Assembly (NCBI GenBank): GCA_041659065.1
Contig: JBAZYY010000001.1
Span: forward strand, 274,228-338,227
Source of the DNA: Parcubacteria group bacterium
GTDB taxonomy: Bacteria; Patescibacteriota; Minisyncoccia; Moranbacterales; UBA11712
Direction: 5' to 3'
Length of the DNA: 64,000 nt
The translations under genes were made by a program, and so were the position numbers. The notes under the pieces are model-generated. The model saw nothing but the letters and a program-made list of their open reading frames with translations, was not told the origin of the DNA and did no database searches. Of this stretch, positions 32,183-39,736 are shown piece by piece (position 1 is the stretch's first letter; each line of letters opens with the position of its first letter).

Positions 32183-32707
32183 TTATCTGTAAATTCTGTA
32201 TTCAACTTCCCTCATTGGCTTTCCCTTGGCGTTTTTGCCTTCAAATTCCTGAATCACAACGCCGCCCAAACGTTCCGGTATTTTTCTGCTTGCGATATTA
32301 TCGACCACGACCGGATATTTAAGATAGTCATAATCCAGGTTCTCATCGGCCCATTTTTTTATGGCCGCGATGGCTTCTTGACCGTATTTATTTCCATGCG
32401 CGGATTTTTTCAGCCAAATTCCCAGTTCCGGATTTTTTTTATTAAGATCATGCAGGCCGGCACAGCCGAGAAACTCTTTGCTATCCCCCAGCAATACGAC
32501 AAACTGCAGATTGCTTCCGCTTTTCATTTCCTTCAGAGATTTGTTTATGAAATCTTGAGTCTCCGCGATCTCCGCGGGTGACTGAGGAAACATGTGGATA
32601 GCAATTTCATCAGTAAACTCCCTGAAAATAATTTCGGCGTATTCCAAAGATATTGGTTCCAGTAATAGTCTGCCAGTTTTTAGCTTAATTTTCAATAGAT
32701 CTTTCAT
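32183..32707 (-). CDS. GNAT-family N-acetyltransferase
   Basis: GNAT fold (RimJ/RimL-like). Confidence 0.6.
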   Translation of the reverse strand: MKDLLKIKLKTGRLLLEPISLEYAEIIFREFTDEIAIHMFPQSPAEIAETQDFINKSLKEMKSGSNLQFVVLLGDSKEFLGCAGLHDLNKKNPELGIWLKKSAHGNKYGQEAIAAIKKWADENLDYDYLKYPVVVDNIASRKIPERLGGVVIQEFEGKNAKGKPMREVEYRIYR

Positions 32708-32792
32708 TTTTCTTTTTTTCTGGTCTTAAATACATCTAAGGTTGTTTCTGATTTATTTCAGTCTTGGATTTCAATCCTCTGCGGAAATGATT

Positions 32793-33254
32793 TTATGTTT
32801 TTTCCCAGCCATATTCACTGTAGAAAATATTTTTTCGGATGCAATTGATTGCTTGCCTGACGCACGGAATAGTGTTTTCGGGAAGTTTATCCAGCGGAAA
32901 CCATTTTAGATCGTCACATCTATGCGGCTCCAGGTTGCAAGGCTCGCCTTTCCATTTTTGGGCTCTTATAAAAACATCCACTCTTTCTTTCAGTTCGACG
33001 GGATTTGCCTTTTCATATCGATTCATCAAGTGAACGACTTTCATGTCTCCCTTTCTTATTTCCAGACCGGCTTCTTCTTTTGCCTCACGGGCAAGGGTTT
33101 GCCTGAAGGTTTCATTGCCATCGAGGTGTCCCGCTACCAGGCTGTAATTGCCGTCGTTATACCCAGTATTGAATCGCCGAAGCAAAAGGATTTTATCGTC
33201 CTTAAACAGGATGAGATATGCGGCGGGAACAATTCTAAATCTGTCTTTGCTCAT
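32793..33254 (-). CDS. NUDIX hydrolase
   Basis: Nudix box GHLDGNETFRQTLAREAKEEAGLEI. Carries the island-type upstream module. Confidence 0.8.
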   Translation of the reverse strand: MSKDRFRIVPAAYLILFKDDKILLLRRFNTGYNDGNYSLVAGHLDGNETFRQTLAREAKEEAGLEIRKGDMKVVHLMNRYEKANPVELKERVDVFIRAQKWKGEPCNLEPHRCDDLKWFPLDKLPENTIPCVRQAINCIRKNIFYSEYGWEKT

Positions 33255-33265
33255 AGGTTTTTTTA

Positions 33266-33350
33266 TCCCCCGCCGAAATTACGTATTTCCTGTCCGCCTA
33301 TGGATGAAAATACGTATTTTTCTCTCCTAAAGTTCGAGTTTAGGAAAGCT
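33266..33350. repeat. short (deletion-derivative) copy of island intergenic module: CCCCCGCCGAAATTACGTA...AAAATACGTATTTT + 3' hairpin
   Basis: Shares the 5' box and the CCGCCTATGGA..TACGTA tail with copy A. The hairpin TCCTAAAGTTCGAGTTTAGGA lies at 33324-33344. Confidence 0.7.
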
Positions 33351-33376
33351 TAGGAACGCCTGAGAACCATCGATTT

Positions 33377-33925
33377 TTATGTCTTATATTTTTCTTTTTT
33401 TTCGTCGATTTTTTTCTTCATTTCTTTCAGCCGGCCTTCACAGCGCGCGAGCGTTGGAGCCACACCATAGGCTACTCTCAGAGCATTGAAATGATTCAGG
33501 ATCACGTGGGCGTCCATCACCTTGGGATCTTCGACCTCGTGTTTTAAATTATTCACCCGGTAAATTTTATTATTCTCTCCCACCAAGAACGTATAAAGTT
33601 TTTCTCCTACGGCCCTTGATTTCCCGATTTTGATATTAAACCCTTTCCGGTTGGCCAAAAGGCATGTCATCGCAGATACCGTAAAACAATTCCAGTTGGC
33701 TAATTTGCTGCCGTTGAAAAGCGCCTGGATATTTTCTTTTTCATCGCGCATAAAGTGCTTGATCTTATCAAACAGTTCAGCTTCGTCGACGTTTTCTATC
33801 CCGCCCTTTCCAAGGTATTCATCAAAATTATTCTCCAATTCGTCGATAATCGGACCGATACTTAATCCATCCTCAAGTTGTTCGGAATATGTTTTTTCTT
33901 CGAGAGTTTCTTTTATTTTTTCCAT
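33377..33925 (-). CDS. hypothetical protein
   Basis: 182-aa ORF preceded by repeat module copy A and followed by hairpin H1. Confidence 0.5.
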   Translation of the reverse strand: MEKIKETLEEKTYSEQLEDGLSIGPIIDELENNFDEYLGKGGIENVDEAELFDKIKHFMRDEKENIQALFNGSKLANWNCFTVSAMTCLLANRKGFNIKIGKSRAVGEKLYTFLVGENNKIYRVNNLKHEVEDPKVMDAHVILNHFNALRVAYGVAPTLARCEGRLKEMKKKIDEKKEKYKT

Positions 33926-33943
33926 ATTTTAGAAAATTATTTA

Positions 33944-34170
33944 TCCCCCGCCGGAAATACGTACCTAAATACGTATTAAAAATCCGCCGTTTTTCTTTTT
34001 ACCCCAACATTGAATGTTGGTAGAGGTTGCATATCCCCACTGTGTCATAATCATACGGCCGTGTTTAAGTGATACATTTTCGTTTTGGATATTTGTCTTT
34101 ATTCATTCCTGCCGGAATTATATAATTCTTACCCGCCTATGGAGGAAGTTACGTAATTATATTTTTATTC
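33944..34170. repeat. long intergenic repeat module copy A (~225 bp)
   Basis: About 90% identical to 38924-39150. Starts with TCCCCCGCCGGAAATACGTA and ends with CCTGCCGGAATTATATAATT...GTTACGTAATT. Internally contains GTATCA...TATAAT(minus)...TGATAC. Confidence 0.85.
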
Positions 34171-34533
34171 CGACAAAGAATCGGTGGCCAAATTTGGGGC
34201 CCTGCTCCTCTCTGATTATTTCTAGATCATTTTCCGATTCTAAATAACTTTTTACGTTTTCGATATCATCGCCCTTTGGCAGAACATCAACCATGATATC
34301 AGTCATTTCATGCGGAGAATTCTCCATATCAATGACAAAGATTGAATCGGTGACTAAGACTTTCAGCTCTTCTCTTAGTTTTAAAATATTTCTCGCTTCT
34401 CTTCCTTGATTGTTTGTTGAGCCGTCTCAATATCTTTTGACGTGTCGTCTTCGCCAGTCAAGCCTTTTATCCTTTCGGCTTCCTGCAGAGATTTTTCGAG
34501 TGAATATTGTTCCATATAATTTTTTGTTAATTA

Positions 34534-34584
34534 TCCCCCACCGGAAGTACCTGCCCGAAATGCTTTTCAAGGCAGGCGGGCGTA
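34534..34584. repeat. 51-bp direct repeat (left) flanking Fic module
   Basis: TCCCCCACCGGAAGTACCTGCCCGAAATGCTTTTCAAGGCAGGCGGGCGTA; 48/51 identical to 36842-36892. Contains an internal CCTGCC..GGCAGG stem. Confidence 0.85.
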
Positions 34585-34602
34585 TTTGAATGCGTAATCG
34601 CA

Positions 34603-34625
34603 TTCCTAAAGTTCGACTTTAGGAA
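34603..34625. repeat. conserved 3' hairpin TTCCTAAAGT-TCGA-ACTTTAGGAA (overlaps Fic stop codon)
   Basis: 10-bp perfect inverted repeat with no U-run. Same family as 33324, 37655, 39128 and 39264. Confidence 0.8.
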
Positions 34626-35554
34626 TGTTTAAAAGCTTTATTTAACTCCCTGGAAAATTCTCTGACAGCTTCAATATTTAGATTGAGGCTGTGGCCCAAG
34701 ATATCCCTTGTCATCTGCGCTCTCAACTCTTTTTTCTTCTTCTCAAGATTGTTTTTGATATTGTCAGGCAATTCACTTTGTTTCATCAGCATACCATTGT
34801 TATCCATTGGATGACCATATAGTTTTCTTTCTTCTGGTGACATCAGGTCATATGCAGCCAGAAATCCAATTGAATCCAGGTCAAATCCCCACGACTCGCC
34901 TTCCAGCCGGACATTAAATTCATTGTTAACAAAAGCCAAGCTCAGACCTCTTCCTCTGAGCTGATTCGCAAACCAGCCGTAATTGACCACGTCGTGATAG
35001 GTATCTATCTTCATATTCCTTTCGATCAAAATATTTTTGAGATCCTGTTGAAGCGAAGCAGCTTCTTTTTGAATGTCTGGAGAAAACAAAAAATATACCA
35101 GCCTTGCTGTTCTCCCATTTCCATCCGCAAAAGGATGCGTATATATAATCAAGTTATACATTGTGAGGGCAATGGCTTCATTTTTATTGGGATGATCTCC
35201 ATTTGCGATCACTTTCATTTTCTCAAATGTTTCCCGAAAAATTTCATTTTTGTCTTCCATGTCTGGCGGCATGAGATTCACCAAATCGTCGTACCAACCA
35301 TCTACCAGCTTTACCTTTTTGTTTAGAATTTCTCTCTTTGGTGGCTCAATGTCGTTTATTATTCCATTCGTTCTTTTCATGAGATCCAGAAACCGCTCAA
35401 AATCAGAATTCCGAATCAGCTCGATATATACTTCGCTGCTACCCATGTCCCGTTCTCCAACGGATCTTTTCATGAATGTATAAATTTTGTCCGCCCCCCG
35501 ATTTTTCCTGTCTGCAGACTCCTGCTGCTGCTCTTGAAAGTCCTCCAATAACAT
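34619..35554 (-). CDS. Fic/Doc-family protein (AMPylase-type toxin-like)
   Basis: Canonical Fic motif HPFADGNGRTARL (HxFx[D/E]GNGRxxR). Confidence 0.8.
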   Translation of the reverse strand: MLLEDFQEQQQESADRKNRGADKIYTFMKRSVGERDMGSSEVYIELIRNSDFERFLDLMKRTNGIINDIEPPKREILNKKVKLVDGWYDDLVNLMPPDMEDKNEIFRETFEKMKVIANGDHPNKNEAIALTMYNLIIYTHPFADGNGRTARLVYFLFSPDIQKEAASLQQDLKNILIERNMKIDTYHDVVNYGWFANQLRGRGLSLAFVNNEFNVRLEGESWGFDLDSIGFLAAYDLMSPEERKLYGHPMDNNGMLMKQSELPDNIKNNLEKKKKELRAQMTRDILGHSLNLNIEAVREFSRELNKAFKHS

Positions 35555-35611
35555 GTCAATTGAAATTTAATTATCTAATAACGAAAGCAAGGAAATCTTA
35601 TGCTGATATAC

Positions 35612-36493
35612 TCATCCCGTCGCGATCGGCTTCAAGGGTACAATATAATAACTTAGTTTTTCATGACCAATATCCTCATCTTCGATTCTTGTATCAATCG
35701 TGCGCCTCATCTGACTGATTTCAAGGCGAATTGCCTCTCTTATCCTTTCTGGTGTCGCGTGTTTTAAAACAGACAGGCGAAGTTTCTCTTCATCTTCATT
35801 TGAAAAATCAAGTTCTTCCTTTGAAATCTTGTTGAGCACTTGAAACCACAATGCAATTTCCTTTATTGGCGAATCATCTGATGATCTTTCAGGATGCTCC
35901 AACCTTATGACAACAGCTTCATCGTGCCTCGCGTATTTTTTCCAGTACTTTTCAAAAAAAGCTAGGATAGCTTGCTCTTCTTGTGGTTGCAAATTTTTGC
36001 GTCCGTATTTCAATTCCTCTTCGCTTCTGTTTTTCCATTTTTCTATCCGCATTTTCAAATATTTGAGAGCATCTTCATAATTTCTGTTTCTGAAAGACTG
36101 CTCGTGTGAAAATTTCGAAGTAAACTGGTCAAACCATTCAGGTGAACCTTCGGCATAGCTATAAGCGGCTTCCGCATCTCCCGTAACAAATATCTTGTCC
36201 TCACTATTCAGCTTATACCACCCGAAAGTCTGCTCACTTTCACCGATTCGCTTCATTATTGAAATCATTTCTTCAATTTCGTTGCACTCAAAATCTCTTC
36301 TCTCTCTGCTTAATCCATGCTCCCTGATGCCCTCAAGCGCACTGAGATTCGTTCCGTGAAAATAAATTTCCATCACGCTTTGCAAAATGCGTTCTGCGAT
36401 GACCAATGATCCTTCAATATTTTCACCGAATTTATTTCCTATGATCCGCTCTGCAAGTTGGATATATACATCCGTAAGCCCGTAGCTATTCAA
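35612..36493 (-). CDS. hypothetical protein, co-operonic with Fic
   Basis: 293-aa ORF, 57 bp upstream of Fic. Confidence 0.5.
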   Translation of the reverse strand: MNSYGLTDVYIQLAERIIGNKFGENIEGSLVIAERILQSVMEIYFHGTNLSALEGIREHGLSRERRDFECNEIEEMISIMKRIGESEQTFGWYKLNSEDKIFVTGDAEAAYSYAEGSPEWFDQFTSKFSHEQSFRNRNYEDALKYLKMRIEKWKNRSEEELKYGRKNLQPQEEQAILAFFEKYWKKYARHDEAVVIRLEHPERSSDDSPIKEIALWFQVLNKISKEELDFSNEDEEKLRLSVLKHATPERIREAIRLEISQMRRTIDTRIEDEDIGHEKLSYYIVPLKPIATG

Positions 36494-36822
36494 GCCTTCG
36501 CTTTTTCCGCCCCATTTGGATATTCTCGAAATTGCGTCTTTTTATTGAAATTGATATTCCCAATGACATCAGGGATATAAGCGGACTCCTTTCCATCCCC
36601 GGTTATGGAAAGTGCGCTCAAGCAGGCTGAAACGGCATGCCTCAGGGCAAGCTTATCCTCACATCTCAAAAATATACCCTGAAACTCCTTCTTCTTCAAG
36701 ATGAGGGGATCTCTGATTGAGTCATTTGAATTTTTCTCTCCTTGATTTGAAGATCCACTTTCTTTTTTCTTCACAGTAGGAGCTCTTGACAGACTTTCTT
36801 TTTTATCAAAAATGTTTCCCAT
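36490..36822 (-). CDS. hypothetical protein (first gene of Fic operon)
   Basis: 110-aa ORF overlapping the next gene by 4 nt (translational coupling); island module lies upstream. Confidence 0.45.
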   Translation of the reverse strand: MGNIFDKKESLSRAPTVKKKESGSSNQGEKNSNDSIRDPLILKKKEFQGIFLRCEDKLALRHAVSACLSALSITGDGKESAYIPDVIGNINFNKKTQFREYPNGAEKAKA

Positions 36823-36841
36823 AATTGTTGCAATAAAAATG

Positions 36842-36892
36842 TCCCCCGCCAGAAATACCTGCCCGAAATGCTTTTCAAGGCAGGCGGGCGTA
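36842..36892. repeat. 51-bp direct repeat (right) flanking Fic module
   Basis: TCCCCCGCCAGAAATACCTGCCCGAAATGCTTTTCAAGGCAGGCGGGCGTA. Confidence 0.85.
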
Positions 36893-36924
36893 ATTAATTA
36901 GGTGATTTTTTTGATTCGTAACAT

Positions 36925-36975
36925 TTAGCTTAGAGAGCATTTATTGTGTCATAATCATACGACCGTATTATTGTG
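36925..36975. repeat. partial copy D of long repeat (GTGTCATAATCATACGACCGT...)
   Basis: Aligns to the TGTATCATAATTATACGGCCGTGTTTA core of copies A, B and C. Confidence 0.6.
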
Positions 36976-36981
36976 ATGCAA

Positions 36982-37539
36982 TTATCTTTTGAAAAAATGC
37001 CCTTTAAGGGTGGCTTCATTGTCGATGCTTGTGGTAGTGACTATCCTGACGTAGGGACCGGCCGAATAGAGCGAAACCAATTCCTGAATGGGTTTTTCGA
37101 ACGGATATGGTGAAACAAAGACGCTATGCTGGAGCTTCAAAAATTTGAGTGTCCGCAAATGCTCGCGCAAAATATCACGGAACAGCCGATTTTTCTCAGG
37201 AATGTCAAAAAGGACAAGTCGCCATTTTCCGTCCCAGCGCTTCGGTTTTTTGAATCTAATGGAACTCCCCAGGAGACTCAATATCTTTGCCTCTCGTCTG
37301 CCTCTTGTCGTCAGAACCAATCTAAAAGATCCGTCAGGCAACTTCTTCTCTTCAAGCAGCTTCTCTAAAGACAAACGGCGCAAAGAACGGTTGAAATTGC
37401 GCTGGTCTATTTTTTTCCATTCTGACCGCAGCATGCGCAACGTCCGATAATATTGCCGGGGAGACCGGGAAAAACCAAGGGCGAATCCGCCTGAAAGGCT
37501 GAGGAGTATTTTCTTTTGCACCGGGCCGAATTTATACAT
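36982..37539 (-). CDS. PaaX-like putative transcriptional regulator (wHTH + Cas2-like-fold C-terminal domain)
   Basis: KRWDGKWRLVLFDIPE...LRTLKFLKLQHSVFVSPYP resembles PaaX_C. The N-terminus is basic and wHTH-like. Confidence 0.45.
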   Translation of the reverse strand: MYKFGPVQKKILLSLSGGFALGFSRSPRQYYRTLRMLRSEWKKIDQRNFNRSLRRLSLEKLLEEKKLPDGSFRLVLTTRGRREAKILSLLGSSIRFKKPKRWDGKWRLVLFDIPEKNRLFRDILREHLRTLKFLKLQHSVFVSPYPFEKPIQELVSLYSAGPYVRIVTTTSIDNEATLKGHFFKR

Positions 37540-37542
37540 ATT

Positions 37543-37650
37543 CTCATTGTATCATAATTATACGGCCGTGTTTAGATGATACATTTTTGTTTTGGATATT
37601 TGCCTTCACTCATTCCCGCCGGAATTACGTAATTGGTTACGTAATTCCCC
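37543..37650. repeat. long repeat copy C (3' two-thirds), with two AATTACGTAATT-type palindromes
   Basis: CATTGTATCATAATTATACGGCCGTGTTTAGATGATACATTTTTGTTTTGGATATTTGCC...CCCGCCGGAATTACGTAATTGGTTACGTAATT. The minus strand gives TATAAT 17-22 nt upstream of the PaaX-like ATG. Confidence 0.8.
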
Positions 37651-37654
37651 TGAA

Positions 37655-37675
37655 TCCTAAAGTCCGATTTTGGGA
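37655..37675. repeat. 3' hairpin TCCTAAAGTCCGATTTTGGGA (degenerate copy)
   Basis: Same family; lies immediately after the stop of the PRTase-like gene. Confidence 0.6.
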
Positions 37676-37688
37676 ATAACTAGGTTAC

Positions 37689-38495
37689 TTATTTCCGTGG
37701 TTTTTGGATTCCTAAAGATCTCAATGTCGCCAAGATTTTTTTCTTTATCTCAGCGACTGTCTTGAATTCCAGTCTGAAGTCATTCTCGTCTTTTCTATCT
37801 TTATTTCCATAAGCCGTATTGTGGCGAGTATGTATATTGCCTCTTGATCCCGTATCGTGAACATACAAATGCGACCAGGCATGTGAAAAGAGTTGCGTTG
37901 CCACAATGTCGAAATGGATTTTGAAATTTTTGTCATTTTTTATTTTTTCCAGCATCATTTGATGATGATCGTCGCTGCCTGCTGCATTATTGCCAGCGCA
38001 TGACAACGCAAAATAAAATATATTATCAAATCCCTGACGGCAATCCTTAATCATTTTGAGCGTCGCCGCTCCTTCACCATCGGATATTGTTTCATCGACG
38101 AAAAAAACTTTTTTATTCGCCAAATGGCCGACATTATTCTCGATCAAGGATTCATTTAATAAGGTCATGTTTATGTACGCCATTTTTAGATTTTCATCAT
38201 TAAAAAACTGAATTTCAGGCATTTTCTGCAAATTCATTTCCTGGAGATATTTTTTCATGGGAGTTCCGAACATGCGCGCGCCTTTATCCAAAAAGACAAT
38301 TACGTCCGGTTGCTCCTTAAAAATATTAACAACTAAGTCCTTAAGAGCTGGCCGAATAAGCTCCAGATCGGATTCGGCCTCTTTGATTGCATCCTCGTAC
38401 AGATTTGCCAGCAGTTCCTGTTTTTTTTGATCAGTTAAGGTGTTTTTTCTTTCTATTGCGTTTCCTTCCATAGCTATGTATCGATTTTTATACAA
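37689..38495 (-). CDS. phosphoribosyltransferase-like domain protein
   Basis: KKVFFVDETISDGEGAAT resembles a PRTase PRPP-binding loop. Weak call. Confidence 0.35.
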   Translation of the reverse strand: MYKNRYIAMEGNAIERKNTLTDQKKQELLANLYEDAIKEAESDLELIRPALKDLVVNIFKEQPDVIVFLDKGARMFGTPMKKYLQEMNLQKMPEIQFFNDENLKMAYINMTLLNESLIENNVGHLANKKVFFVDETISDGEGAATLKMIKDCRQGFDNIFYFALSCAGNNAAGSDDHHQMMLEKIKNDKNFKIHFDIVATQLFSHAWSHLYVHDTGSRGNIHTRHNTAYGNKDRKDENDFRLEFKTVAEIKKKILATLRSLGIQKPRK

Positions 38496-38571
38496 GCGAG
38501 TCTTTTACCCACTTTAGGAATTCCAGATTTTCATAGAATTTTCTAACATTAAATGTGAGAACGGGTTACTC

Positions 38572-38904
38572 CTAAATAACATTGTACGGTCCTCCGATGT
38601 TGAGTAGATCCGCAAAAAATACAAGAATTGGGGTCAAAATAAAATATAGGCCGAGCAGCCAAAAAATCCACCGCAAAATGTGTCCTTTTCCACCTTCTTT
38701 ATAAATTATCCAGTATATCCTTACGCAAAGAATAAGGATAAACAAAACCGCCAATTCGATCGCTGCGTTCGGGCCATGGATGGTCATGAAACATGCCGCA
38801 CAAAGCATTATGGAAAAGATATAAGTATAGAAAATGGCCACTATATAAAACAAGACAAGCGTTAGCAGCGCATAGCCGATAAATCTTAGGATTGGTTTCT
38901 TCAT
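38572..38904 (-). CDS. small integral membrane protein
   Basis: Three TM helices; repeat copy B lies upstream. Confidence 0.5.
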   Translation of the reverse strand: MKKPILRFIGYALLTLVLFYIVAIFYTYIFSIMLCAACFMTIHGPNAAIELAVLFILILCVRIYWIIYKEGGKGHILRWIFWLLGLYFILTPILVFFADLLNIGGPYNVI

Positions 38905-38923
38905 ATTTTTTGTTTAAAAATTT

Positions 38924-39150
38924 CCCCCCCGCCGGAAATACGCAATCGAATACGTAATAAAAAATCCGTCGTTTTTCTTTTTACCCCGACATTGAATATT
39001 GGTAGAGGTTACATATTCCCATTGTATCATAATTATACGGCCGTGTTTAGGTGATACATTTTTGTTTTGGATATTTGTCTTTATTCATTCCCGCCGGAAT
39101 TACGTAATTAAATATGTATTTCTTTTATTCCGAAGTTTGACTTTAGGAAC
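38924..39150. repeat. long intergenic repeat module copy B + hairpin TTCCGAAGTTTGACTTTAGGAA (39128-39149)
   Basis: About 90% identical to copy A over about 200 bp. Contains the AATTACGTAATT perfect palindrome. Confidence 0.85.
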
Positions 39151-39263
39151 GGTTAAGCCATTCTACGCGCTTTTGCAAATAGTGTTTGTCGTAAAGGCCA
39201 GTTTCTGCGATTTTATCTGCCAATGATTTTAGTTTCTCTAATATATAACTGTGTGTTTTTTTA

Positions 39264-39286
39264 TTCCTAAAGTCGGACTTTAGGAA
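39264..39286. repeat. 3' hairpin TTCCTAAAGT-CGGA-CTTTAGGAA
   Basis: Perfect 9-10 bp inverted repeat, the last copy at the island/R-M boundary. Confidence 0.8.
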
Positions 39287-39568
39287 TGATTAATACTGTG
39301 AAACCTCGCAAAGGAATTGATAATCTGACACCTATGGAGAAACTGATTGAATATTTTTATCCGACGGAATTGTAAACAACGCTCTTAATTCTTACAGATT
39401 ATATCTTATGTTTAATCTAATTATAGCCTTTTTATAAACAAAAACCAGTCCTTTCGAGCTGGGAAAACTTCGCGCTATTGGACTGTTTTTCATCCACGTC
39501 CCCGTCTGCCAATTTAGGAGAAAAAGCTGGAAAATCACGCTTTGTTTTTTTGTCATGCGACAACTGTA

Positions 39569-39736
39569 TTATCTGTCACGCCAAACATATATATAGCCGG
39601 GAGGCGCCGGGGGCTTAGGTGGTTTTGGAGGTTTGGGCGGCCGCGGTGGACGAGGTGGTCTTGGTGGTCGCGGAGGCTTTGGCGGTTTTGGCGGAACCAA
39701 TGGACCCCGTGGATCTTTTGTTAATTTCCATGGCAT
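39569..39736 (-). CDS. 55-aa proline-rich (PP[KR])n repeat peptide
   Basis: MPWKLTKDPRGPLVPPKPPKPPRPPRPPRPPRPPKPPKPPKPPAPPGYIYVWRDR. AAGAAAGGAGGTGA Shine-Dalgarno sequence lies 8 nt upstream of the ATG. Not in the ORF track because it is under 60 aa. The listed plus ORF 39542-39724 is its antisense artefact. Confidence 0.6.
   Translation of the reverse strand: MPWKLTKDPRGPLVPPKPPKPPRPPRPPRPPRPPKPPKPPKPPAPPGYIYVWRDR

What the first reader, a model, noticed from the sequence alone, without database searches (positions are those of the whole stretch)
33324..39286. Conserved hairpin TTCCTAAAGT-N4-ACTTTAGGAA at the 3' end of each cassette
Five copies lie at 33324, 34603, 37655, 39128 and 39264. 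Each sits within 0-25 nt of a stop codon; the copy at 34603 overlaps the Fic stop. None has a following U-run, so they are not classical intrinsic terminators. The combination of a gene, a 3' palindrome and a shared upstream element recalls cassette arrays with recombination sites (integron attC or Xer/pdif-like). The attC core GTTRRRY is not matched. Alternatives are RNase processing or protection sites, or factor-dependent terminators.
Basis: seen in the sequence. Interest (0 to 1): 0.6.

Follow-up and report, generated by a model that had tools for sequence, protein, structure and literature searches.

The report
REP-type palindromes in a CPR genome
The hairpin repeated after several genes is a short REP-like palindrome that is scattered through Moranbacteria/Parcubacteria genomes and brackets its own HUH (RAYT-like) transposase gene: a known kind of element in a lineage where I found no description of it, and not an integron- or Xer-type cassette site.

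Summary
The repeat is real, but it was mis-transcribed: it is ATTCCTAAAGT-N3-ACTTTAGGAAT, with a 3-nt loop, not 4. The window holds two perfect copies, three decayed copies and one truncated copy, all inside the 33.3-39.3 kb accessory-gene array and all in the same polarity as the genes. Only 3 of about 11 array genes are directly followed by a copy.

The palindrome is not specific to this array. Exact copies occur on about 90 contigs of Candidatus Moranbacteria/Parcubacteria. They are mostly intergenic: 41% lie within 30 nt after a stop codon, against 6% of random positions. About 30% carry a one-sided TAACC head.

In every locus holding a Y1/HUH transposase gene at least 65% identical to the L015 protein, the gene is bracketed by inverted copies of this palindrome and holds one more copy in frame. 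Paralogues at 58% identity or less are bracketed by other palindromes. The predicted fold best matches E. coli TnpA-REP bound to a REP hairpin (4ER8).

Best reading: REP-type elements cognate to a RAYT-like transposase, present here mostly as relics. Any stabilising effect on mRNA 3' ends is inferred by analogy only. No integrase, attC or dif features were found. Novelty: new member of a known kind.

The parts
34603..34625 (-). Perfect copy of the palindrome (TTCCTAAAGT-CGA-ACTTTAGGAA on the coding strand). The Fic ORF ends on the TAA inside its left arm.
   Evidence: ssDNA fold -10.7 kcal/mol, z -7.4.
39264..39286 (-). Perfect copy at the right edge of the array. A 34-codon ORF remnant ends on its internal TAA.
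   Evidence: ssDNA fold -8.6 kcal/mol, z -5.9.
33324..33346 (-). Decayed copy (2 mismatches), 30 nt after the stop of the 182-aa ORF.
   Evidence: The ssDNA fold is not better than shuffles.
37654..37676 (-). Decayed copy (3 mismatches), 12 nt after the stop of the PRTase-like ORF.
   Evidence: The fold is not better than shuffles.
39126..39154 (-). Decayed copy with a 1-nt indel, plus its TAACCG head (39149-39154). A 48-codon ORF remnant ends inside it.
   Evidence: (family D3).
38511..38521 (-). Truncated copy (one arm only, ATTCCTAAAGT on the coding strand), about 50 nt after the stop of the 110-aa membrane-like ORF.
34004..34027 (-). Copy of a second REP-type family (CCAACATT-S-AATGTTGG), with a degenerate CAACC head in place of TAACC, embedded in long spacer C. 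This family brackets the RAYT paralogue P0069 in another genome.
38986..39009 (-). Degenerate copy of the second family with a TAACC head in long spacer J, fused directly to a duplicated start of the PaaX-like gene.
32183..39300 (-). The accessory-gene array that holds all the copies: GNAT, NUDIX, unknown ORFs, Fic, a PaaX_M/Cas2-like protein, a PRTase-like protein and a small membrane protein. It lies between trmD/ftsW/mur genes and a type I RM + OLD nuclease cluster.

Best explanation
The hairpin is a REP-type (repetitive extragenic palindrome) element of Candidatus Moranbacteria/Parcubacteria. Its cognate enzyme is a RAYT-like Y1/HUH transposase, a family of about 221 aa.

Shown here: the palindrome is a dispersed, mostly intergenic repeat with a defined polarity (head TAACC-N, then an 11-bp stem and a 3-nt loop). 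It brackets, in inverted orientation, one particular clade of Y1 transposase genes, while sister paralogues are bracketed by other palindromes.

Inferred, by analogy with E. coli TnpA-REP and IS200/IS605: the transposase recognises the element as a folded single-strand DNA hairpin on the lagging-strand template, cleaves beside it and occasionally copies it to new sites. Copies survive where they do no harm, which is just after stop codons. The head plus hairpin carries stop codons in all three frames, so an insertion at a gene's 3' end only trims the protein.

In this window the copies have accumulated in a dispensable accessory-gene island, all in the gene orientation. Two are intact and four are decaying or truncated relics. 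A second REP family truncates duplicated gene leaders in the same spacers, so the 'cassette-like' look comes from mosaic (BIME-like) spacers, not from a dedicated cassette recombination system.

At the RNA level the intact copies would form stable 3' hairpins (-11.6 and -14.5 kcal/mol) that could slow 3'-exonucleases, as described for E. coli REPs. That is an untested side effect.
For: - Enrichment and clustering: 4 matches against 0.01 expected; all copies lie in the array.
- Dispersal: exact copies on 28 genome-contig loci, 23 of them Patescibacteria, including 11 copies on 7 loci of MAG RIFOXYB1_FULL_43_19; 69 further metagenome loci; none in viral contigs.
- Location: of 92 unique copies, 14% lie inside ORFs against 73% of random positions, and 41% lie within 30 nt after a stop against 6%.
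- Polarity: TAACC sits in a fixed register on one side only in 31 of 105 copies. Of 27 polar copies with a nearby ORF, 25 follow a co-oriented gene. The head plus hairpin has stops in all three frames.
- Transposase: the L015 ORF hits Pfam Y1_Tnp at 32.5 bits (cut-off 23). Its only NCBIfam hit is 'REP-associated tyrosine transposase'. H-x-H and Y..N..H are invariant across 24 homologues. The AF2 model has pLDDT 89.5. Its best PDB match, and the only one with E <= 0.001, is 4ER8, TnpA-REP bound to a REP hairpin.
- Arrangement: in L015, L029, L031, L032, L034, L035, L070, L091 and L113 the gene has copies on its 5' side, one in-frame copy inside and one on its 3' side. Asymmetric variants show that the bracketing copies are inverted.
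- Cognate pairing: every gene at 65% identity or more has the palindrome. Paralogues at 58% or less have none and are bracketed instead by CCAACATT..., CCCAACATCGG..., CCCTAGAGC... or GGAAGT...ACTTCC palindromes.
- Conserved synteny of the gene across genomes: pilin/PilX upstream in all five, ligA downstream in four.
- Selection on the hairpin: at an orthologous site the flanks are about 74% identical, while the 40-nt hairpin stretch has one change, in the loop. The outer pair changes on both sides, T-A / C-G / A-T.
- The defining features of REP/RAYT systems match those given in PMC2817692, PMC5581495 and 10.1101/2021.07.10.451892.
Against: - No biochemical evidence; transposition and ssDNA recognition are inferred by analogy.
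- The NCBIfam RAYT score is far below the equivalog cut-off (36 against 80 bits), and there is no sequence-level PDB match even with a family profile.
- The head is TAACC, not the GT(A/G)G of described REPs, and only about 30% of copies carry it.
- Copy number looks low (about 10-25 per roughly 1-Mb genome) compared with more than 100 in classic cases. Whole genomes could not be counted.
- The cognate RAYT was not found in the window and was not shown for the window's MAG. The MAG's one identified paralogue (P0105) uses a different palindrome, which is absent from the window.
- No clean filled-versus-empty orthologous site was obtained. Spacers B and C are paralogous, not orthologous.
- The strong co-orientation with genes would also be expected if the element were selected for a role in the transcript.
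Confidence: 0.8

Rival explanations
1. The hairpins are cassette recombination sites, either integron attC-like or Xer/pdif-like. A tyrosine recombinase elsewhere in the genome excises and inserts gene cassettes at the hairpins.
For: Several hairpins sit at the 3' ends of co-oriented accessory genes, with shared spacer modules between the genes. attC sites are also recognised as folded single strands (established knowledge).
Against: - The palindrome is dispersed genome-wide beside unrelated core and accessory genes, and also lies inside ORFs.
- Only 3 of about 11 array genes are followed by a copy, and 3 of the 5 copies are decayed.
- No integrase was found among 30 window ORFs.
- It is a symmetric 23-25 bp perfect stem with no R''/L''/L'/R' organisation, no GTTRRRY core and no extrahelical bases. 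The arms are identical with a 3-nt centre, unlike the asymmetric 11-6-11 dif.
- The loops differ between copies.
- The associated enzyme is an HUH transposase.
Confidence: 0.03
2. The element is primarily an RNA element: a 3'-end hairpin selected to stabilise or process upstream mRNAs, or to act as a factor-dependent terminator. Its association with the transposase would be incidental.
For: - Copies lie just after stop codons and are co-oriented with the upstream gene, 25 to 2.
- The sequence is conserved at an orthologous site.
- Perfect copies form stable RNA hairpins (-11.6 to -16 kcal/mol).
- REPs in E. coli are known to protect 3' ends (established knowledge).
Against: - The arm sequence, not only the pairing, is identical across divergent genomes.
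- The same palindrome brackets one transposase clade and sits inside it, while sister clades have their own palindromes. An RNA stabiliser alone does not explain that.
- Several copies lie next to canonical intrinsic terminators, on either side of them.
- Neither strand folds consistently better in the degenerate copies.
- There is no Rfam match.
- Three of the five window copies no longer fold.
Confidence: 0.1
3. The hairpins are the ends, or solo ends (a MITE/PATE), of an autonomous IS200/IS605-type insertion sequence whose transposase still moves itself, rather than a domesticated RAYT system.
For: - The protein has the Y1_Tnp fold and is flanked by hairpins.
- Fragments of the gene are joined to a head plus hairpin in L001, L007, L011 and L020, and in several metagenome loci.
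- Copy number is low.
Against: - The gene sits in the same neighbourhood in genomes that differ by 16-33% in protein sequence: pilin/PilX upstream in all five, ligA downstream in four.
- Paralogues within one genome are only 45-58% identical, and each has its own palindrome.
- Solo hairpins greatly outnumber genes.
- No IS200/IS605 NCBIfam model was hit; only the RAYT model was.
- The best fold match is TnpA-REP rather than IS608 or ISDra2.
Confidence: 0.06
4. The palindrome is a double-stranded operator bound by a dimeric transcription factor that regulates the neighbouring genes.
For: It is a perfect inverted repeat with conserved arms and a variable centre. One copy lies 5-8 nt upstream of the transposase start codon.
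Against: - Most copies lie at gene 3' ends, not at promoters, and some lie inside ORFs.
- A one-sided head and polarity are not expected of a symmetric operator.
- The neighbouring genes are functionally unrelated.
Confidence: 0.02

Closest known systems
REP/BIME sequences and TnpA-REP (RayT/YafM) of E. coli; REPIN-RAYT systems of Pseudomonas and Stenotrophomonas (Nunvar 2010, PMC2817692; Bertels & Rainey 2011, PMC3116915; Bertels 2017, PMC5581495)
   Same: - A short extragenic palindrome dispersed in the genome.
- A Y1/HUH transposase gene bracketed by inverted copies of it.
- One cognate palindrome per paralogue.
- The gene sits in a conserved chromosomal position.
- Compensatory changes keep the stem.
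- Spacers are built as mosaics of several palindrome families.
- The best fold match is 4ER8.
   Different: - The host is Patescibacteria (CPR) rather than Proteobacteria.
- The stem is AT-rich, 11 bp with a 3-nt loop, rather than GC-rich.
- The head is TAACC-N, not GT(A/G)G, and is present in only about 30% of copies.
- Copy number is apparently tens, not hundreds.
- Copies are mostly singlets with strong co-orientation to genes.
- The protein is about 221 aa, with an extra segment that carries an in-frame copy of the palindrome.
- The NCBIfam RAYT score is below the cut-off.
IS200/IS605 family (IS608, ISDra2) and their palindrome-associated derivatives
   Same: The Y1 HUH fold; subterminal hairpins recognised as ssDNA; the strand and orientation bias expected from use of the lagging-strand template (established knowledge).
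   Different: The gene is not multi-copy or mobile as a unit. The same hairpin lies on both sides of the gene, rather than distinct left and right ends. Solo hairpins outnumber genes. No tnpB is present.
Rickettsia palindromic elements (RPE)
   Same: A palindromic repeat that can sit in frame inside protein-coding genes, adding a peptide segment. Here that is the UppP loop (L010) and the transposase itself.
   Different: RPEs are about 100-150 bp with no known transposase. Here the element is 23-29 bp, mostly intergenic, and has a cognate Y1 gene.
Integron attC sites / Xer-dif (pdif) modules
   Same: They lie at the 3' ends of co-oriented accessory genes. attC sites are also read as folded single strands.
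   Different: There is no integrase and there are no R/L boxes or extrahelical bases. The element is too short and too symmetric, is not confined to an array, and has variable loops.

Membership tests
REP-RAYT system | The associated protein is a Y1/HUH transposase with an HUH motif and a catalytic tyrosine | tested here: met
   Pfam Y1_Tnp 32.5 bits against a cut-off of 23. H90-x-H92 and Y150..N154..H158 are invariant in 24 homologues. AF2 model pLDDT 89.5. Top PDB fold hit 4ER8_A at E 2.5e-5, followed by IS608, ISDra2 and IS200 TnpA.
REP-RAYT system | The protein reaches the curated RAYT equivalog threshold (NCBIfam NF047646) | tested here: not met
   36.1 bits against a cut-off of 80, although it is the only NCBIfam hit. 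No PDB sequence hit with the single sequence or the family profile. The protein is a distant relative, not an equivalog.
REP-RAYT system | [quoted passage not shown] | tested here: met
   Copies lie on the 5' and 3' sides of every gene at 65% identity or more wherever the contig allows. Asymmetric variants in L032, L034 and L035 show that the 5'-proximal and 3' copies are reverse complements.
REP-RAYT system | Each RAYT paralogue has its own cognate palindrome | tested here: met
   The L015 clade pairs with TTCCTAAAGT..ACTTTAGGAA; P0069 with CCAACATT.AATGTTGG; P0037 with CCCAACATCGGATGTTGGG; the L010 paralogue with CCCTAGAGC..GCTCTAGGG; P0105 with GGAAGT...ACTTCC.
REP-RAYT system | The flanking palindrome is over-represented and dispersed in extragenic space of the same genome (classically more than 100 copies) | tested here: inconclusive
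   It is dispersed and extragenic: 11 exact copies on 7 loci of one MAG, and 14% inside ORFs against 73% of random positions. Only loci, not whole genomes, could be read, and the numbers seen are tens rather than hundreds.
REP-RAYT system | A conserved GT(A/G)G head 5' of the palindrome (PMC2817692) | tested here: not met
   The head is TAACC-N in a fixed register, in 31 of 105 copies. It is also found on 12 of 34 copies of the CCAACATT family. A head exists, but its sequence is different.
REP-RAYT system | The RAYT is single-copy per type, vertically inherited and in a conserved location (PMC5581495) | tested here: inconclusive
   The neighbourhood is shared in genomes at 67-84% protein identity: pilin/PilX upstream, and ligA downstream in four of the five. 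There are no complete genomes and no phylogeny. Gene fragments occur elsewhere.
REP-RAYT system | The enzyme binds and cleaves the REP as single-stranded DNA | not testable with these tools
   Only the predicted ssDNA folding of intact copies is available (-8.6 and -10.7 kcal/mol).
Integron (attC array) | An IntI tyrosine recombinase with attI next to the array | tested here: not met
   No Phage_integrase-type hit among 30 ORFs of the window, including all ORFs flanking the array. The rest of the genome was not seen.
Integron (attC array) | An attC of 57-141 nt with R''-L''...L'-R' boxes, a GTTRRRY core and extrahelical bases | tested here: not met
   The element is a 23-25 nt perfect stem with a 3-nt loop. 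There is no consistent RYYYAAC/GTTRRRY pair in the flanks.
Xer/dif-like (pdif) modules | A 28-bp site with two different 11-bp arms around a 6-bp centre, flanking modules in alternating orientation | tested here: not met
   The arms are identical, the centre is 3 nt and varies between copies, and all five window copies are in direct orientation.
Intrinsic (Rho-independent) terminator | A G+C-rich stem followed by a U-run | tested here: not met
   None of the hairpins was called as a terminator. The flank after the hairpin is A-rich. Canonical terminators lie beside several copies in other loci.
IS200/IS605 insertion sequence | Several near-identical copies of the whole unit (transposase plus distinct left and right ends) at different loci | tested here: inconclusive
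   The gene shows conserved synteny and the paralogues are divergent, which argues against this. Truncated gene fragments joined to hairpins exist.

The most novel reading that the evidence does not exclude
A CPR-specific branch of the RAYT family may work differently from the described REPIN systems in three ways. (1) Its palindromes are polar singlets with a TAACC head and stop codons in all three frames, placed at gene 3' ends on the coding strand. (2) The transposase gene carries an in-frame copy of its own target; this is seen in two clades, with two different palindromes, which hints at self-regulation or self-targeting. (3) The elements may actively remodel accessory-gene islands, truncating genes and duplicating leaders as in spacers C and J. 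If so, REP-bounded 'cassettes' would be a real, HUH-driven route of gene shuffling in ultra-small genomes.
Probability: 0.15. Interest if true: 0.6.

Novelty: new member of a known kind. Interest (0 to 1): 0.38.

Why it matters
REP-RAYT systems have been described almost entirely in Proteobacteria. Nunvar et al. proposed an origin within the Gammaproteobacteria, and Bertels et al. link only RAYT Groups 2 and 3 to REPINs.

This result points to a large family in the streamlined, roughly 1-Mb genomes of Patescibacteria: about 2,000 proteins, with at least five co-diversified palindrome/transposase pairs. That would extend the phylogenetic range of these systems. It would also provide a compact setting for studying how they persist.

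Practically, it explains why assemblies of these MAGs break at such spacers, and it warns against reading such arrays as integrons. For the window itself the finding is ordinary: most copies are decaying relics.

Tried and rejected
- The literal N4 pattern gave no match.
- Strand of folding from G-T wobbles: the degenerate copies disagree (33324 folds better on the - strand, 37654 on the +), so there is no strand signal.
- Rfam at a permissive threshold gave only two sub-threshold snoRNA chance hits, neither at a hairpin.
- The promoter/terminator scan found nothing at the hairpins.
- A literature search for the motif found only unrelated primers and similar sequences. Searches combining RAYT/REP with Patescibacteria, Parcubacteria or Moranbacteria found no paper linking them.
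- PDB sequence searches with the protein and with a family profile found no relevant hit.
- Cassette order in relatives: exact-protein look-ups returned only short contigs of the same population in the same order.
- Cognate RAYT in the window's MAG: there is none in the window. P0105, from the same samples, uses another palindrome that is absent from the window. P0003 and P0004 come from other samples.
- Filled-versus-empty test at uppP: the segment is a hypervariable loop of similar length in all orthologues, so it is not a clean insertion site.
- Spacer E against spacer G as with/without: G may hold a decayed relic (13 of 23 positions), so this is not clean.
- DNA-uptake-sequence idea: rejected, because the 9-mer occurs only in the array and not about once per kb.
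- Phage origin: 0 hits in viral contigs.

Full report
OBSERVATION

The pattern as written, with a 4-nt spacer, does not occur in the window even with three mismatches. Reading the sequence shows that the element is ATTCCTAAAGT-N3-ACTTTAGGAAT. With the corrected spacer there are four matches at up to 3 mismatches (33324, 34603, 37654, 39264) against 0.01 expected. The repeat finder adds a fifth copy, with an indel, at 39126 (family D3). Only 34603 and 39264 are perfect. A truncated one-arm copy lies at 38511-38521.

All genes in the region are on the - strand. The array (32183-39300) encodes GNAT, NUDIX, Fic, a PaaX_M/Cas2-like protein, a PRTase-like protein and several unknowns. It lies between trmD/ftsW/murG/murC/murB and a type I RM + OLD nuclease cluster.

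On the coding strand the Fic ORF ends on the TAA inside the hairpin. Two other genes end 12 and 30 nt upstream of a copy. The last two copies follow only 48- and 34-codon ORF remnants. Of about 11 array ORFs, only three are directly followed by a copy, so 'each cassette' is an overstatement. No U-run follows any copy. In the 64 kb, every copy and every associated spacer module lies within the array.

NOT ARRAY-SPECIFIC

An exact-match scan of one genome per species found the palindrome on 28 loci. Of these, 23 are from Candidatus Moranbacteria, Parcubacteria or the Patescibacteria group, often on several contigs of one MAG: 11 copies on 7 loci of RIFOXYB1_FULL_43_19. The metagenome scan added 69 loci. 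Viral contigs gave none.

Among 92 unique copies with enough flank, 14% lie inside ORFs of at least 80 aa, against 73% of random positions in the same loci. 41% lie within 30 nt downstream of a stop codon, against 6%. The neighbouring genes are unrelated to one another: Nramp, EcoRI methylase, RhuM, L21, radical SAM, an M23 peptidase, PIN, Fic. Several copies lie beside canonical GC-stem/T-run terminators, so the hairpin is not the terminator.

At an orthologous site in two genomes (L003 and L012) the flanking coding DNA is about 74% identical, while the 40-nt stretch holding the hairpin differs at one loop base.

POLARITY

In 31 of 105 unique copies, TAACC sits in a fixed register, one base before the stem, on one side only. 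When the head is placed 5', 25 of 27 copies with a nearby ORF follow a co-oriented gene, and in four cases the TAA of the head is that gene's stop codon. The head plus hairpin has stop codons in all three frames. All five window copies carry TAA or TAG in that same register on the coding strand, so they share one orientation.

THE TRANSPOSASE LINK

In L015 a 221-aa ORF bracketed by copies hits Pfam Y1_Tnp above its cut-off. Its only NCBIfam hit is 'REP-associated tyrosine transposase', at 36 bits against a cut-off of 80. The ORF has YHIYNRG, an HUH motif (NHYH) and a C-terminal Y..N..H, all invariant in 24 homologues. The family has about 2,000 members of about 221 aa, and those with organism names are Moranbacteria, Parcubacteria or the Patescibacteria group. 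JGI names them 'REP element-mobilizing transposase RayT'.

The AF2 model is confident (pLDDT 89.5). Its best PDB match, and the only one with E <= 0.001, is 4ER8, E. coli TnpA-REP bound to a REP hairpin. IS608, ISDra2 and IS200 transposases follow. Sequence-only PDB searches find nothing.

In five further loci from other genomes (67-84% identity) the gene lies in the same neighbourhood: pilin/PilX genes upstream in all, and ligA downstream in four of the five. The architecture is the same in each:
- one copy with a TAACCG-type head about 105 nt upstream, followed by a small terminator-like hairpin;
- a second copy 5-8 nt before the ATG;
- one copy in frame at codons 66-73 (FLKLNFRK);
- one copy 3-10 nt after the stop.

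Asymmetric variants in L032, L034 and L035 show that the copies bracketing the gene are reverse complements of each other. The outermost pair changes on both sides between genomes: TTCC..GGAA, CTCC..GGAG, ATCC..GGAT.

Across all loci fetched, every gene at 65% identity or more to the L015 protein has the palindrome on its 5' side (where the contig reaches), inside, and on its 3' side. In one case a GCTAAGGT..ACCTTAGC variant replaces the 3' copy. Every paralogue at 58% identity or less has none. Those paralogues are bracketed by their own palindromes:
- P0069: TACCAACATT-S-AATGTTGGTA
- P0037: CTCCCAACATCGGATGTTGGGAG
- L010 paralogue: TACCCTAGAGC..GCTCTAGGGTA
- P0105: ATGGAAGT-YSR-ACTTCCAT

THE WINDOW'S SPACERS ARE MOSAICS

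On the coding strand the spacers read as follows:
- the hairpin;
- tandem TACGTA palindromes plus a CCGGCGGG box;
- optionally, a roughly 150-nt module with TATAAT inside a TGTATCA..TGATACA inverted repeat;
- a second TACGTA/CCGGCGGGGGA box;
- about 20 nt;
- the ATG.

Aligning spacers H, J and C shows that the roughly 150-nt module is the leader of the PaaX-like gene. In H it runs into that gene. In J and C the same ATG is followed by a TAACC-type head (CAACC in C) plus the CCAACATT palindrome, which is the REP of the P0069-type paralogue. The long spacers are therefore duplicated leader remnants truncated by a second REP family. Spacers B and C share the TACGTA..CCATAGGCGG module with and without the hairpin, which shows the hairpin is an independent module. 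Gene fragments of the transposase joined to a head plus hairpin in L001, L007, L011 and L020 show the same kind of junction.

As ssDNA the two perfect window copies fold at -10.7 and -8.6 kcal/mol (z about -6 to -7). The three degenerate copies are no better than shuffled sequence. That fits decaying relics rather than sites needed at each gene end.

THE WINDOW'S ORGANISM

The proteins belong to a MAG labelled Parcubacteria group bacterium (WC858 tags; 339,200-bp contig). A RAYT paralogue with a neighbouring accession (P0105, MFA5872011.1) occurs in the same two samples. It is bracketed by GGAAGT..ACTTCC palindromes, holds two further in-frame copies, and that palindrome is absent from the window. 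Whether this MAG also has the L015-type gene is unknown: the window has none.

MECHANISM

Shown: the element is a dispersed, polar, mostly extragenic palindrome that is cognate to one clade of Y1/HUH transposase genes.

Inferred from the established biochemistry of TnpA-REP and IS200/IS605: recognition as a folded single strand, cleavage guided by the head, and occasional copying. The orientation bias could come from use of the lagging-strand template, since all genes here are co-oriented and the GC skew has a uniform sign. Selection would then leave copies just after stop codons. An RNA-level effect, 3'-end protection, is plausible by analogy but untested.

RIVALS

- Integron or Xer sites are rejected on anatomy, distribution and the absence of a recombinase.
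- Intrinsic terminators are rejected.
- A purely RNA role does not explain the cognate pairing with the transposase.
- An autonomous IS200/IS605 is disfavoured by the conserved synteny and the divergent paralogues, but complete genomes are needed.

NOVELTY

No paper in the searched library links REP or RAYT to Patescibacteria, and the motif itself is not reported. The kind of system is well known, so I rate this as a new member of a known kind. The unusual details are the TAACC head, the AT-rich stem, the polar singlets, the in-frame copy inside the transposase gene and the low copy number.

Noticed in passing
window 33255-33290, 33926-33975, 34516-34560, 36823-36870, 38905-38965 (- strand); also L009 ~3228, L021 ~5496, L022 ~3125: A separate upstream element: (A/T)TTCCGGCGGGGGA lies 7-23 nt before the ATG (mostly about 20). 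In the window and in L009 it is preceded by two TACGTA-core palindromes. The genes behind it have no GGAGG Shine-Dalgarno, although the organism uses one elsewhere (for example AAGGAGGTGA before the ORF at 39736). It recurs in other Moranbacteria genomes before unrelated genes. It may be a regulated promoter for short-leader mRNAs.
   Followed up: partly
L015 1309-1331; L029, L031, L032, L034 and L035 at 2699-2721; L110 ~2116-2165: The RAYT-like genes carry their own cognate palindrome in frame. In the L015 clade it encodes FLKLNFRK; in P0105 two copies encode GSSTSIMEVELP. The position is the same variable segment between the first strand/helix and the HUH strand. The FLKLxFR peptide is partly conserved even in paralogues that use other palindromes. 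I know of no described RAYT with this feature.
   Followed up: partly
L010 4431-4479 (GW2011_GWC2_40_12): A tandem pair of the hairpin lies in frame inside uppP and encodes the loop VPKVKLSEQFLKFNFRKE. Three close orthologues share it, and others have unrelated loops of similar length. This recalls the in-frame Rickettsia palindromic elements. L014 1880-1926 holds another tandem pair inside a 564-aa ORF.
   Followed up: partly
window 38975-39110 and 33990-34130, compared with 37540-37690: Long spacers J and C are duplicates of the PaaX_M/Cas2-like gene's leader, including its ATG, fused to a TAACC-type head (CAACC in C) plus the CCAACATT palindrome. A fourth, more diverged copy of the leader overlaps the 3' end of that gene (36945-37004, family D2).
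   Followed up: yes
L006 2215, L026 7318 and 7420, L027 5140: The same 23-nt palindrome, extended to TGAGT-TTCCTAAAGT-N3-ACTTTAGGAA-ACTCA, occurs in high-GC Planctomycetota and Flavobacteriales MAGs. No RAYT-like gene lies within those loci. It may be an unrelated family or a case of transfer.
   Followed up: no
L001, L007, L020, L029 (e.g. L029 3190-3215): A sister palindrome family, GCTAARGT-N3-ACYTTAGC, has the same core architecture. It replaces the hairpin at the 3' side of the transposase gene in L029/L030. No copy occurs in the window.
   Followed up: partly
window 39569-39736 (-): A 55-aa ORF with a perfect Shine-Dalgarno site encodes a proline/lysine-rich repeat (…PPKPPKPPRPPRPP…), just outside the array.
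   Followed up: no
window 35612-36493 with 36490-36822 (-), and 34157-34327 with 34381-34515 (-): Two pairs of adjacent ORFs without Pfam hits: a 4-nt overlap in the first pair and a 53-nt gap in the second. They may be two-gene modules (toxin-antitoxin-like) or split genes. The same pairs occur on short contigs of the same population.
   Followed up: no
L036, L037, L038, L111: Independent assemblies of the same population break into 1.5-3.6 kb contigs within this array and at the P0105 locus. This fits repeat-induced assembly fragmentation.
   Followed up: no
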